The translations under genes were made by a program, and so were the position numbers. DNA of 64,000 nucleotides from Bacteroidota bacterium (lineage in GTDB: Bacteria; Bacteroidota; Bacteroidia; CAIKAF01), in assembly GCA_023432985.1 (NCBI GenBank), contig JAEZEQ010000065.1, positions 12 to 64,011 on the forward strand, in the 5' to 3' direction. This document shows positions 4,650 through 5,672 of the stretch, one piece after another; the first letter of the stretch is position 1, and every line of letters begins with the position of its first letter. Under the pieces are notes generated by a model. That model saw nothing but the letters and a program-made list of their open reading frames with translations, was not told where the DNA came from and ran no database searches.

Positions 4650-5576
4650 TTAGAGAATAGATTTGACAAGTTCTTTAATTTTATTTTTAATGAGTTTGGG
4701 CGAGCGCACTTTTACGTCGGGGATGAAGCGAAGAATATCGGCGTAGAATTCGTTATTGGGTGTGATTTCGAGGGATATGAGGACATTTTTTCCTTGTGCG
4801 GAAAGTACTTTTTGGGAGGCATGCAGAGGGTGTGCGAGGATAAAATCGCGTGCAAAACGGGATATTTCAAGTTCTATATGTTGCACATTTTCGGTGGGAG
4901 CCGGGAAGAGTCCGTACATAGATGGAGGGAAAGAGAGTTGTTGGATTTTGCGTTTGGGGTCGATGCGCAATCGGAGGGCGGAGGGCTGTTTGATGCGATC
5001 GAGGCCATAGACTTTCAGGGCATAATCTTGGTCGAGGTCCTGGGCATAGAGATACCAAATTTGTTTGTATTCTTTGAGCAGAATGGGCCAGACTTTTTTC
5101 TCTTGTTCGAGCGGATTTCCGTGTTTTTTATAGAGAAATCGCACGGGTTTTTGTTTTTGAATTAGAGAGATAAGAAATTCGAGATGTTCTATGCCTTTAT
5201 TGTGTTGCGATTCGATTTGAATAATGGGGTTAAGAGGCGATTCAATTTGTATTTGGAGGAGGGTGTTTAATTTTTGGATGAGTCCGTCCGTTTCTTTAAA
5301 AGCACCATGTTTGCGGTATTTTTCGAGGGTTTGGAAAGCGAGTTGTATGGCTGTTTTTTCCTTTTTACTGAGGAGGTTAGAAGCTTGCAGGTCGGGTTTA
5401 AAGAGTAGGGTATATAATTTGTGTTCGGGTTTGGGTATATGTGCTCCGGCCTGTCTTGCTTTTTGGAGGCAACGGTAGAAAGTAGCTTCCGACATGCCTA
5501 ATGTATCGCATATAGCATGCATATCGAGGCCTTGAGGGTGTTCGTGCAATAATTCGATCAATTCGTTATGTTTCAT
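4650..5576 (-). CDS. HTH-WYL domain transcriptional regulator (BrxR/CapW-like)
   Basis: N-terminal winged HTH (LIELLHEHPQGLDMHAICDTLGMSEATFYRCL). A literal WYL motif sits in the central domain (KQIWYLYAQDL). 308 aa, which matches the HTH-WYL-WCX architecture. Divergently adjacent to an AT-rich block that carries a restriction-modification system. Confidence 0.75.
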   Translation of the reverse strand: MKHNELIELLHEHPQGLDMHAICDTLGMSEATFYRCLQKARQAGAHIPKPEHKLYTLLFKPDLQASNLLSKKEKTAIQLAFQTLEKYRKHGAFKETDGLIQKLNTLLQIQIESPLNPIIQIESQHNKGIEHLEFLISLIQKQKPVRFLYKKHGNPLEQEKKVWPILLKEYKQIWYLYAQDLDQDYALKVYGLDRIKQPSALRLRIDPKRKIQQLSFPPSMYGLFPAPTENVQHIELEISRFARDFILAHPLHASQKVLSAQGKNVLISLEITPNNEFYADILRFIPDVKVRSPKLIKNKIKELVKSIL

Positions 5577-5610
5577 AAAGGTTGATTTAGAAAATGAATA
5601 TAACGAATAT

Positions 5611-5672
5611 ACAAAAATTATACTCTCACTTTTTGATAGGGAAATGAGAGTGGGGTAGTTTTACTTTGTGTT
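5611..5672. repeat. Copy 1 of a ~65-bp direct repeat with an internal inverted repeat (ACTCTCA-N16-TGAGAGT), in the divergent promoter region between the WYL regulator and the C10 peptidase gene
   Basis: ACAAAAAT...CTCTCACTTTTTGATAGGGAAATGAGAGTGG...TTTACTTTGT is repeated at 19804-19873 with about 85% identity over 65 bp, including 31 identical consecutive nt. Confidence 0.8.

What the first reader, a model, noticed from the sequence alone, without database searches (positions are those of the whole stretch)
4650..5672. BrxR/CapW-like HTH-WYL regulator divergent from the island, with a palindrome in its own promoter region
The 308-aa minus-strand protein has an N-terminal wHTH and a literal WYL motif (KQIWYLYAQDL). 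HTH-WYL-WCX regulators of the BrxR/CapW type are known to sit at the edge of defence islands, where they repress neighbouring systems and bind inverted repeats upstream of their own gene. The palindrome ACTCTCA-N16-TGAGAGT lies 45-95 nt upstream of its start codon, in the shared divergent promoter with the C10 peptidase gene. It recurs after hsdR. This is consistent with the WYL protein controlling expression across the whole block.
Basis: partly seen in the sequence, partly recalled or inferred. Interest (0 to 1): 0.6.

Follow-up and report, generated by a model that had tools for sequence, protein, structure and literature searches.

The report
WYL regulator beside a cargo-swapping hotspot
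A ligand-sensing DNA-binding regulator sits next to a spot in a Bacteroidota genome where related strains carry different inserted gene sets (a restriction system, a Cas12a CRISPR locus, a defence reverse transcriptase, or nothing), and its likely binding site plus promoter is duplicated at both ends of the insert.

Summary
A 308-aa minus-strand protein (4650-5576) is a wHTH-WYL-WCX regulator. ACTCTCA-N16-TGAGAGT lies 46-75 nt upstream of its start codon and recurs identically at 19823-19852.

The protein is closer to the ssDNA-sensing activators DriD and PafBC than to BrxR or CapW, and it lacks the RWHVR motif of the BrxR/CapW repressors.

The second palindrome is not an internal operator of the hsd block. 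It is part of a 51-nt direct repeat (5622-5672 and 19823-19873) flanking a 14,150-nt insertion. Contigs with 97-99% identical flanks show four states:
- No insert: the WYL gene is divergent from a DUF2341 secreted-protein gene across 261 nt, with one copy of the repeat.
- cas12a-cas4-cas1-cas2 plus array, using the same 5'UTR up to ATGAAA.
- A cargo ending in a UG39 defence reverse transcriptase.
- A 69-aa gene followed by DUF6994.

The window keeps an orphan Cas12a CRISPR repeat at 19733-19768.

Across 17 copies the 30-nt palindrome and a TTTACTTTG box are invariant, while the linker between them varies. A 59%-identical orthologue keeps the core motif.

Best reading: a WYL-gated operator-promoter module duplicated at the edges of a cargo hotspot. 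Binding and the sign of regulation are untested.

The parts
4650..5576 (-). Gene for the 308-aa wHTH-WYL-WCX regulator. wHTH is about residues 1-60 (5397-5576), the WYL domain is residues 131-197 (4986-5186; the WYL motif is at 5049-5057), and WCX is residues 232-308 (4653-4883).
   Evidence: AF2 model with pLDDT 83. Foldseek against PDB. Profile against PDB sequences.
5622..5651 (.). Palindrome copy 1, ACTCTCA-N16-TGAGAGT, the candidate operator. It can also be read as three phased hexamers: CTCTCA (5623-5628), TGATAG (5634-5639) and TGAGAG (5645-5650).
   Evidence: Invariant in 17 copies. The core ACTCTCAyTTTTTGATAG is kept upstream of the 59% orthologue.
5622..5672 (+). 51-nt direct repeat, copy 1: palindrome, 8-nt variable linker, then the invariant TTTACTTTG (5660-5668), which is a 7/8 match to the Bacteroidota -7 box TAnnTTTG. 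This is the left boundary of the insertion.
   Evidence: D4; BLAST overlaps.
5673..5752 (+). Leader (5'UTR) of the first cargo gene. 5673-5707 is shared by all cargo types. 5708-5752, up to and including ATGAAA, is shared with the Cas12a strains L003 and L028.
5673..19822 (+). 14,150-nt insertion that is absent from empty-site strains. It carries the C10 peptidase with a T9SS tail (5747-8341), a 169-aa gene (8338-8847), DUF6994 (9014-9712), hsdM (10041-11828), HEC-09/NYN (11948-12568), hsdS (12559-13830), an 81-aa gene, an 850-aa S1-domain protein (14074-16626) and hsdR (16637-19645).
   Evidence: GC is 33-40% against 40-47% in the flanks.
19733..19768 (+). Orphan Cas12a-type CRISPR repeat, GGCTATAAACCGATAAAAATTTCTACTGTTGTAGAT. 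It differs at one base from the 36-nt repeat of the array in sister strain L003.
19823..19873 (+). 51-nt direct repeat, copy 2 (palindrome at 19823-19852, TTTACTTTG at 19861-19869). This is the right boundary of the insertion and the promoter region of the DUF2341 gene.
20039..21646 (+). DUF2341/DUF4082 protein with a T9SS sorting tail. In empty-site strains it is the gene directly divergent from the WYL gene.
4189..4605 (-). 138-aa predicted membrane protein, 44 nt downstream of the WYL gene on the same strand and possibly co-transcribed with it. It is present in all strains of this species and absent from the 59% orthologue locus L001.

Best explanation
The 308-aa protein is a homodimer-type wHTH-WYL-WCX transcription factor of a divergent Bacteroidota lineage.

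Inferred regulation: it binds the invariant 30-nt dyad in the divergent promoter region. From there it sets both its own leftward promoter and the rightward promoter, whose -7-like box TTTACTTTG lies 8 nt beyond the dyad. It does so in response to a ligand bound by the WYL domain, most likely single-stranded nucleic acid, as in every characterised regulator of this architecture.

Shown structure of the locus: the native partner of this promoter is the DUF2341 secreted-protein gene. In the window, a 14,150-nt cargo lies between two copies of the 51-nt 'operator + core promoter' module. Copy 1 now drives the first cargo gene, the C10 peptidase. Sister strains have cas12a on the very same 5'UTR. 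Copy 2 still drives DUF2341. The site is a cargo-exchange hotspot whose ancestral cargo in this lineage was a Cas12a CRISPR locus; an orphan repeat of that locus remains.

Sign of regulation: unresolved. I marginally favour DriD-like ligand-dependent activation of the rightward promoter (about 0.45) over BrxR/CapW-like repression (about 0.40). Either way the expected result is signal-inducible expression of whatever gene sits first after the module. The hsd genes are probably not under direct control.

The confidence of 0.6 is for the regulatory reading. The structural facts (protein family, 51-nt duplication, insertion, cargo swapping) I hold at about 0.9.
For: Family:
- Pfam WYL and WCX match. 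PADLOC WYL models match at E 3e-21.
- The AF2 model (pLDDT 83) matches only wHTH-WYL-WCX regulators: DriD 5e-14, PafBC 8e-12, BrxR 3e-8, CapW 2e-7.
- The profile search against PDB sequences agrees: PafBC 2e-21, DriD 1e-19.

Operator:
- The 30-nt dyad is invariant in 17 copies, while 6 of the next 10 positions vary and TTTACTTTG is again invariant.
- The core ACTCTCAyTTTTTGATAG is the only alignable block upstream of the 59% orthologue. There it forms a 10-N5-10 palindrome with 9/10 complementarity. The recognition helix is nearly unchanged: SEATFYRCLQKAR against SEATFFRALQKAR.
- Only two such sites occur in 64 kb.

Insertion:
- Five contigs from five sequencing runs join the WYL gene to DUF2341 across 261-262 nt with one copy. 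Their alignments to the window overlap by exactly the 51 nt.

Cargo swapping on the same leader:
- L003 and L028 carry cas12a. L002 and L005 carry the 69-aa gene plus DUF6994. L021 carries RT_UG39 plus a truncated CRISPR repeat.
- The window keeps an orphan CRISPR repeat.

Lean towards an activator:
- The best matches are DriD and PafBC.
- The dyad centre is about 31 nt upstream of the G of TTTG, where a -33 element would lie, and no TTG is present at consensus spacing (read from the sequence). DriD sites overlap the -35 position of promoters that lack a -35 element (PMC13004042).
Against: - No binding, transcription start site or expression data exist. The promoter elements are inferred from a consensus that I recall (Bacteroidota TTG / TAnnTTTG), not from anything measured here.
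- The 7-N16-7 geometry (arm centres 23 bp apart) is wider than any solved WYL-regulator site: DriD 7-N7-7, BrxR 10/11-N5-10/11, CapW 19-24 bp (PMC10853764, PMC9122601, PMC9122588). The inner pair CTCTCA-N5-TGATAG is narrower than these.
- The right arm is not kept in register in the 59% orthologue.
- The invariance of the dyad could also reflect its use in recombination, or gene conversion between the two copies.
- The Arg before the WYL tryptophan is present in 40 of 49 family members but is Ile here, so the ligand may differ. DriD also lacks this Arg.
- The linker region of the model has low confidence (pLDDT 55-70).
- All empty-site contigs come from k=31 assemblies, which could in principle mis-join at a 30-32-nt repeat.
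Confidence: 0.6

Rival explanations
1. A BrxR/CapW-type repressor binds both palindrome copies and keeps the whole block, from the peptidase to hsdR, silent until phage attack.
For: - The architecture is the same, and BrxR and CapW are significant structural matches.
- BrxR has two R-boxes within its island (PMC9122601).
- The orthologous locus carries defence cargo in at least three configurations.
- A WYL repressor of a CRISPR locus, Sll7009, is cited in PMC9122601.
Against: - The RWHVR motif is not met (PMC11662680).
- DriD and PafBC are clearly better matches.
- Copy 2 lies outside the block and is the only copy in strains without cargo, so it is not an island-internal operator.
- Sizeable intergenic gaps precede DUF6994, hsdM and the NYN gene.
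- The dyad lies upstream of the -7-like box, not over it as CapW sites do, nor downstream of the promoter as in BrxR.
Confidence: 0.2
2. The 51-nt repeat is purely a recombination feature with no regulatory role. It would be an att-like core or a homology patch left by Campbell-type integration of a circular cargo, and the WYL gene would just be a neighbouring core gene.
For: - The direct repeats bracket the insert exactly, and the empty site has a single copy.
- The left edge of the repeat coincides with the first base of the palindrome.
- The cargo has lower GC than the flanks.
- Distant WYL homologues are not associated with defence genes.
Against: - Pfam annotation of the nine cargo ORFs found no integrase, recombinase or transposase, and the three cargo ORFs without any Pfam match (169 aa, 81 aa, and most of the 850-aa protein) were not examined further. 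None was found among the flanking genes either. The only tRNA gene (42105-42177) is over 22 kb from the site.
- A 59% orthologue with no cargo and no second copy still keeps the core motif upstream of its WYL gene.
- The conservation pattern (invariant dyad, variable linker, invariant -7-like box) is that of an operator plus promoter, not of a crossover core.
- A 16-nt spacer does not fit the 6-8 bp overlap of tyrosine-recombinase sites (my own knowledge).
Confidence: 0.15
3. The palindrome acts as an RNA hairpin, either as a terminator for hsdR or CRISPR-array read-through, or as a 5' leader structure.
For: The region can fold at -10 to -17 kcal/mol, with z-scores of -1.7 to -5.0. Copy 2 lies downstream of hsdR and of the former CRISPR array.
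Against: - No terminator-like site was found in either region, and no U-run follows the stem.
- No Rfam family matches; the best hit has E 0.16 and is a plant miRNA model far below its gathering score.
- Copy 1 has no gene upstream to terminate.
- The constraint covers the 16-nt loop as fully as the stem, which is unlike a simple hairpin.
Confidence: 0.05

Closest known systems
DriD (Caulobacter crescentus), a homodimeric wHTH / three-helix-bundle / WYL / WCX activator that senses ssDNA (PDB 8TP8, 9PFQ)
   Same: - It is the best structural match: Foldseek E 5e-14, TM 0.51-0.55 over about 325 columns. The profile match is 1e-19.
- The domain order is the same.
- The GLDRI / RLDRM and HAsQ / HAtQ motifs are shared.
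- DriD autoregulates and binds a dyad placed where a -35 element would be (PMC10853764, PMC13004042).
   Different: - Sequence identity is only 15-17%.
- The DriD site is 7-N7-7 (21 bp), against 7-N16-7 here.
- DriD controls DNA-damage genes in an alphaproteobacterium that uses sigma-70-type promoters. Here the host is a Bacteroidota organism, and the controlled genes are a secreted protein or swapped cargo.
- The three-helix bundle is modelled with low confidence here.
BrxR (Escherichia fergusonii pEFER, Acinetobacter) and CapW, WYL repressors of BREX, CBASS and defence islands (PDB 7QFZ, 7T8K, 7TB5, 9C5G)
   Same: - The architecture is wHTH-WYL-WCX, with significant fold matches (E 3e-8 to 1e-6).
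- The gene lies at the edge of a defence island, with an inverted repeat in its own promoter region.
- A second site occurs elsewhere in the locus, as with BrxR R-BOX2 (PMC9122601).
- The 59% orthologue has a 10-N5-10 palindrome, which is the Acinetobacter BrxR geometry.
   Different: - The RWHVR motif is absent.
- The similarity is weaker than to DriD or PafBC.
- The site lies upstream of the -7-like box, not over the -10 element or downstream of the promoter.
- The regulator is a syntenic core gene that keeps its site even when no defence cargo is present.
Core-genome defence hotspots, where variable defence cargo sits between conserved flanking genes (my own knowledge of the literature; not checked here)
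   Same: Flanks that are 97-99% identical carry alternative cargo (type I R-M plus HEC-09, Cas12a CRISPR, DRT UG39) or nothing. No integrase is present in the cargo.
   Different: The cargo is bracketed by a duplicated 51-nt operator-promoter module. The first cargo gene is spliced onto a shared leader, in one case exactly at the start codon. I did not find this combination described, but my literature search was limited.

Membership tests
wHTH-WYL-WCX transcription factors (the PafBC / DriD / BrxR / CapW superfamily) | WYL domain (PF13280) containing the WYL motif | tested here: met
   33.6 bits against a cut-off of 21.8, residues 131-197. W174-Y175-L176 confirmed.
wHTH-WYL-WCX transcription factors (the PafBC / DriD / BrxR / CapW superfamily) | C-terminal WCX domain (PF25583) | tested here: met
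   23.9 bits, exactly the gathering cut-off, residues 232-308. Modelled at pLDDT above 90. It aligns with the DriD WCX domain.
wHTH-WYL-WCX transcription factors (the PafBC / DriD / BrxR / CapW superfamily) | N-terminal winged helix-turn-helix domain | tested here: met
   The sequence evidence is weak (HTH_IclR E 0.002, below cut-off). The model shows three helices plus a wing at pLDDT 84-94, and the full-length Foldseek alignments to DriD span about 325 columns.
wHTH-WYL-WCX transcription factors (the PafBC / DriD / BrxR / CapW superfamily) | Dimer that binds a dyad in its own promoter region | not testable with these tools
   A conserved dyad is present. Oligomeric state and binding need experiments.
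BrxR/CapW repressor clade | RWHVR motif, with the flanking arginines contacting ssDNA (PMC11662680) | tested here: not met
   The window protein reads Q-I-W-Y-L-Y at the equivalent positions.
BrxR/CapW repressor clade | Closer to BrxR/CapW than to other WYL regulators | tested here: not met
   Foldseek: DriD 5e-14 and PafBC 8e-12, against BrxR 3e-8 and CapW 1.7e-7. Profile: 2e-21 and 1e-19, against 1e-6 and 4e-5.
BrxR/CapW repressor clade | Encoded next to anti-phage systems | tested here: inconclusive
   Orthologues at this locus are adjacent to R-M, Cas12a or DRT cargo, but also to no cargo at all. Three distant homologues lie in housekeeping contexts. The sample is small.
BrxR/CapW repressor clade | Represses in the absence of ligand and is released by ssDNA | not testable with these tools
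   Needs reporter assays and EMSA.
DriD-type WYL activators | [quoted passage not shown] | tested here: inconclusive
   The model has helices at 71-88, 97-111 and 129-140, but pLDDT is only 55-70 over residues 61-125.
DriD-type WYL activators | Site overlaps the -35 position of promoters that lack a -35 element (PMC13004042) | tested here: inconclusive
   The dyad centre is about 31 nt upstream of the G of the conserved TTTG, and no TTG lies at consensus spacing (sequence). Transcription start sites are unknown.
Integrase-borne genomic island with att sites | Direct repeats flank the insert, and the empty site carries a single copy | tested here: met
Integrase-borne genomic island with att sites | Integrase or recombinase gene inside or beside the island | tested here: not met
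   No such Pfam domain was found in any of the nine cargo ORFs or in the neighbouring genes. ORFs without any Pfam match were not examined further.

The most novel reading that the evidence does not exclude
The invariant operator-promoter module is itself the handle for cargo exchange. Cassettes would be gained and lost by recombination between 51-nt promoter copies, through excision as a circle and Campbell-type re-entry at the single copy of an empty site. Every incoming cassette (Cas12a CRISPR, DRT UG39, type I R-M, a secreted protease) would then be wired automatically to the same WYL sensor. That would make the site an integron-like, sensor-gated platform without a dedicated integrase.
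Probability: 0.25. Interest if true: 0.75.

Novelty: new variant of a known kind. Interest (0 to 1): 0.55.

Why it matters
WYL regulators beside defence islands are already known. This locus adds a natural experiment. In near-identical strains, one regulator gene and one operator-promoter module sit in front of a Cas12a CRISPR operon, a protease plus restriction island, other cargo, or only a housekeeping secreted-protein gene. The module is duplicated at both edges of the cargo.

If the regulator does gate this promoter, two things follow:
- Newly acquired immune genes can inherit inducible control simply by landing at this site.
- It would be an example of a WYL-controlled type V-A CRISPR system. 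My two literature searches found no such system described.

The locus also shows a CRISPR-Cas system being overwritten by other defence genes, with a single repeat left as a scar.

Finally, it cautions against reading every WYL gene next to a defence island as a BrxR/CapW-type repressor. This one is closer to the DriD and PafBC activators.

Tried and rejected
- **Pattern scans of GTDB genomes and JGI metagenomes.** I scanned for ACTCTCAYTTTTTGATAG-N4/5-TGAKAG. The only hits were one unrelated Lactobacillus locus, a chance AT-rich match after a terminator.
- **Single-sequence phmmer against the PDB.** It found nothing relevant. A family profile was needed.
- **A conserved WYL + ~135-aa operon.** Distant homologues are followed by a gene of about 135 aa, but those proteins are unrelated to the window's 138-aa membrane protein. 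Rejected.
- **Homology between the C10 peptidase and the DUF2341 protein that might explain the repeat.** None was found beyond the T9SS tail.
- **WYL-cas12a as an ancestral unit.** A 69%-identical Cas12a in another taxon has no WYL gene and no palindrome upstream. The link is specific to this locus.
- **Known RNA families or terminators at either copy.** None.
- **L023/L024 single copy as a copy1 x copy2 recombinant.** GGGGAGTATTT looks like a hybrid, but it differs from copy 2 by a single base, so this is not decisive.
- **Literature search for WYL plus Cas12a.** Nothing specific turned up.
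Full report
**1. The observation**

The minus-strand ORF at 4650-5576 encodes 308 aa starting MKHNELIELLHEHPQGLDMHAICDTLGMSEATFYRCLQKARQAG and containing KQIWYLYAQDL. ACTCTCA-N16-TGAGAGT lies at 5622-5651, which is 46-75 nt upstream of the ATG. It sits in the 170-nt region shared with the divergent C10 peptidase gene at 5747-8341.

The same 30 nt recur at 19823-19852, including the 16-nt spacer. That is 178 nt after the hsdR stop codon. None of 100 shuffles gave two matches.

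The palindrome alone is not remarkable. A perfect 7-nt inverted repeat with a spacer of 20 nt or less appears in 32% of simulated 170-nt regions of this composition. What matters is its recurrence and conservation, described below. The recurrence is really a 51-nt direct repeat at 5622-5672 and 19823-19873, with 45/51 positions identical and the first 32 nt identical (D4).

**2. The protein**

- Pfam gives WYL at 33.6 bits (cut-off 21.8), WCX at 23.9 bits (equal to the cut-off) and a weak HTH_IclR match.
- PADLOC's Cas-associated WYL models match at E 3e-21.
- Close relatives are rare. One cluster is 99% identical, one protein is 59% identical, and everything else is at or below 30%.
- phmmer against PDB sequences finds nothing. 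A profile built from 49 family members finds PafBC (2e-21), DriD (about 1e-19), BrxR 7QFZ (1e-6), CapW 7TB5 (4e-5) and BrxR 7T8K (3e-3).
- An AlphaFold2 model has mean pLDDT 83 and pTM 0.62. The linker at residues 61-125 reaches only 55-70.
- In a Foldseek search of the PDB, all 32 hits with E<1e-3 are wHTH-WYL-WCX regulators: DriD 5e-14 (TM 0.51-0.55), PafBC 8e-12, BrxR 3e-8 (TM 0.34-0.39), CapW 1.7e-7 and WYL1 5e-5.

Membership of the wHTH-WYL-WCX superfamily is therefore established. Membership of the BrxR/CapW repressor clade is not. The RWHVR motif that marks those repressors (PMC11662680) reads QIWYLY here, and the activators DriD and PafBC are the nearer relatives. DriD itself reads SNYLV at this position and shares the GLDRI/RLDRM and HAsQ/HAtQ motifs. 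The missing arginine therefore does not argue against ssDNA sensing.

**3. What the second copy really is**

The contigs discussed here carry the same WYL protein (within the 99% cluster) and flanks that are 97-99% identical to the window.

*Empty site.* In five contigs from five sequencing runs (L023-L027), the WYL gene is directly divergent from the DUF2341/T9SS gene, the homologue of window 20039-21646. The intergenic region is 261-262 nt and holds one copy of the 51-nt element. Each contig aligns to the window up to 5672 and again from 19823, and the two alignments overlap by exactly those 51 nt. Window 5673-19822 is therefore a 14,150-nt insertion bracketed by a duplicated 51-nt module. 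Copy 2 belongs to the conserved right flank, not to the restriction block.

*Cas12a cargo.* In L003, and in L028 with an 87%-identical allele, the same module and the same 5'UTR lead into cas12a-cas4-cas1-cas2 and an array of at least 22 repeats. Identity with the window runs up to and including ATGAAA. After that the window continues as the C10 peptidase and L003 continues as Cas12a.

*Third cargo.* In L002 and L005 the shared leader ends at 5707. A 69-aa membrane-protein gene follows, then DUF6994, which is 88.6% identical at the nucleotide level to window 8966-9112.

*Fourth cargo.* In L021 the DNA to the left of copy 2 ends in a UG39-class defence reverse transcriptase (PADLOC E 1e-164). 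This is followed by the first 11 nt of the CRISPR repeat, fused to CCCTCCCTC and copy 2.

*Scar in the window.* The window keeps one orphan repeat at 19733-19768, one mismatch from the L003 repeat, lying between hsdR and copy 2. This lineage therefore once carried the Cas12a locus here, and other cargo has overwritten it. The cargo has lower GC (33-40%) than the flanks (40-47%).

*No mobility genes.* Pfam annotation of the cargo ORFs and flanking genes found no integrase or transposase domain, and the only tRNA gene (42105-42177) is over 22 kb from the site.

*Caveat.* All the empty-site contigs are k=31 Logan assemblies. A 30-32-nt shared core should break such contigs, as it does in L013-L015 and L022, rather than mis-join them. 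I therefore take the empty sites as real, but long reads should confirm them.

**4. Evidence that the module is functional**

Across 17 copies (copy 1, copy 2 and empty-site copies from different strains), the conservation pattern is as follows:
- The 30-nt dyad is invariant.
- Six of the next ten positions vary.
- TTTACTTTG at positions 39-47 is again invariant.
- Homology ends at position 51.

This is the pattern expected of an operator, a spacer and a core-promoter box. TTACTTTG is a 7/8 match to the Bacteroidota -7 consensus TAnnTTTG, which I cite from my own knowledge.

In the 59% orthologue locus L001, from a different species, there is no cargo and no DUF2341 gene. There the only alignable block in the 700-nt upstream region is ACTCTCATTTTTTGATAG, plus a CTTTGT about 25 nt further on. 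The L001 sequence forms a 10-N5-10 palindrome, TACACTCTCA-TTTTT-TGATAGTGTA, with 9/10 complementarity. The recognition helix is almost unchanged between the two proteins.

Both loci can be read as three phased hexamers: CTCTCA-N5-TGATAG-N4/5-TGAKAG. Only the two sites match this pattern in the 64-kb window.

**5. Mechanism**

*Shown.* The protein family, the architecture of the module, its duplication at the cargo edges, cargo swapping on a shared leader, and the sequence constraint.

*Inferred.* The WYL dimer binds the dyad and gates both its own promoter and the rightward promoter in response to a nucleic-acid ligand.

*Sign of regulation.* Open. Three points favour activation:
- The nearest relatives are activators.
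- The dyad occupies the position where a -33 element would lie, and no TTG is present at consensus spacing.
- DriD sites likewise overlap the -35 position of promoters that lack a -35 element (PMC13004042).

Two points favour repression:
- All characterised defence-linked WYL regulators are repressors (PMC9122601, PMC9122588, PMC11662680).
- The dyad abuts the leftward -7-like box.

The 7-N16-7 geometry fits no solved complex. Known sites are DriD 7-N7-7, BrxR 10/11-N5-10/11 and CapW 19-24 bp.

*Reach of control.* Direct control probably extends only to the first transcription unit after each copy: the C10 peptidase plus the overlapping 169-aa gene, and DUF2341. Gaps of 167, 329 and 120 nt precede DUF6994, hsdM and the NYN gene.

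**6. How the duplication arose**

This section is inference. Three features need explaining:
- The repeat spans exactly 'operator to about the transcription start'.
- Similarity beyond the identical 32 nt is imperfect.
- A vestigial TACAAAAAT, the leftward -7-like box, sits to the left of copy 2, displaced by a C-rich 11-mer.

This looks like recombination between two related promoter regions rather than a minimal att core. One route would be a circular cargo carrying one module that integrated by single crossover at the resident module, with the reverse reaction giving empty sites. The right half of the single copy in empty sites resembles copy 2, as this route predicts, but it is equally what an ancestral empty site would show.

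**7. Comparison and novelty**

WYL regulators co-localising with diverse defence islands, with inverted repeats in their promoters and a second box inside the island, are already described (PMC9122601). Three things differ here:
- The regulator is DriD-like rather than BrxR-like, and it is a syntenic core gene in a Bacteroidota lineage.
- Its operator-promoter module is duplicated at both edges of a cargo hotspot.
- Alternative cargo, including a type V-A CRISPR operon, is spliced onto the same leader, once exactly at the start codon.

I rate this a new variant of a known kind, with interest 0.55. The more novel reading, that the module is the recombination handle of a sensor-gated cassette platform, is not excluded. 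I give it a probability of about 0.25.

Noticed in passing
window 19733-19768: A single orphan Cas12a-type CRISPR repeat, one mismatch from the 36-nt repeat of the array in sister strain L003. It is the scar of a CRISPR-Cas locus that the peptidase/R-M island replaced. L021 keeps only the first 11 nt of the repeat.
   Followed up: yes
window 5747-5752 compared with L003 7510-7515: The C10 peptidase in the window and Cas12a in L003 share the whole 5'UTR and the first two codons (ATGAAA), then diverge completely. The ORF has been replaced exactly at the start codon, probably through microhomology.
   Followed up: partly
window 11948-12568: A NYN-domain gene that matches the PADLOC candidate defence family HEC-09 (E 1e-92) is embedded between hsdM and hsdS and overlaps the hsdS start.
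   Followed up: no
window 13832-16626: An 81-aa ORF and an 850-aa protein lie between hsdS and hsdR. The 850-aa protein has two S1 RNA-binding domain matches and no other recognised domain. This is an unusual passenger inside a type I R-M operon.
   Followed up: no
window 8338-8847: A 169-aa ORF with no Pfam match overlaps the stop codon of the C10 peptidase by 4 nt. It may be a cognate protease inhibitor, by analogy with the Bacteroides C10 protease and inhibitor pairs (from memory, not tested).
   Followed up: no
window 9014-9712 and L005 1-149: DUF6994 (E 1e-88) sits just upstream of hsdM. A copy that is 88.6% identical at the nucleotide level begins a different cargo in L005. The block is therefore shared between cargo types but is more diverged than the flanks (97-98%).
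   Followed up: partly
window 25518-27283 (inside gene 23751-28061): Seven tandem repeats of about 237 nt encode Ig-like domains in a 1436-aa CHU_C/T9SS protein. In the related species L001, the orthologue of this gene is the direct neighbour of the WYL gene.
   Followed up: no
window 4189-4605 (-): A 138-aa predicted multi-pass membrane protein lies 44 nt downstream of the WYL gene on the same strand. It is present in every strain of this species and absent from L001. It may be part of the regulator's own operon.
   Followed up: partly
L001 9700-9790: The cargo-free intergenic region of the 59% orthologue contains a GC-rich hairpin, GCAGGGTC...GACCCTGC, followed by a T-run. This looks like a terminator or a remnant of a lost gene.
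   Followed up: no
L013-L015 and L022 (contig ends at about window 5651-5655): Several k=31 assemblies break inside the 30-32-nt identical core of the repeat. This is what a true two-copy repeat in those samples would produce.
   Followed up: partly
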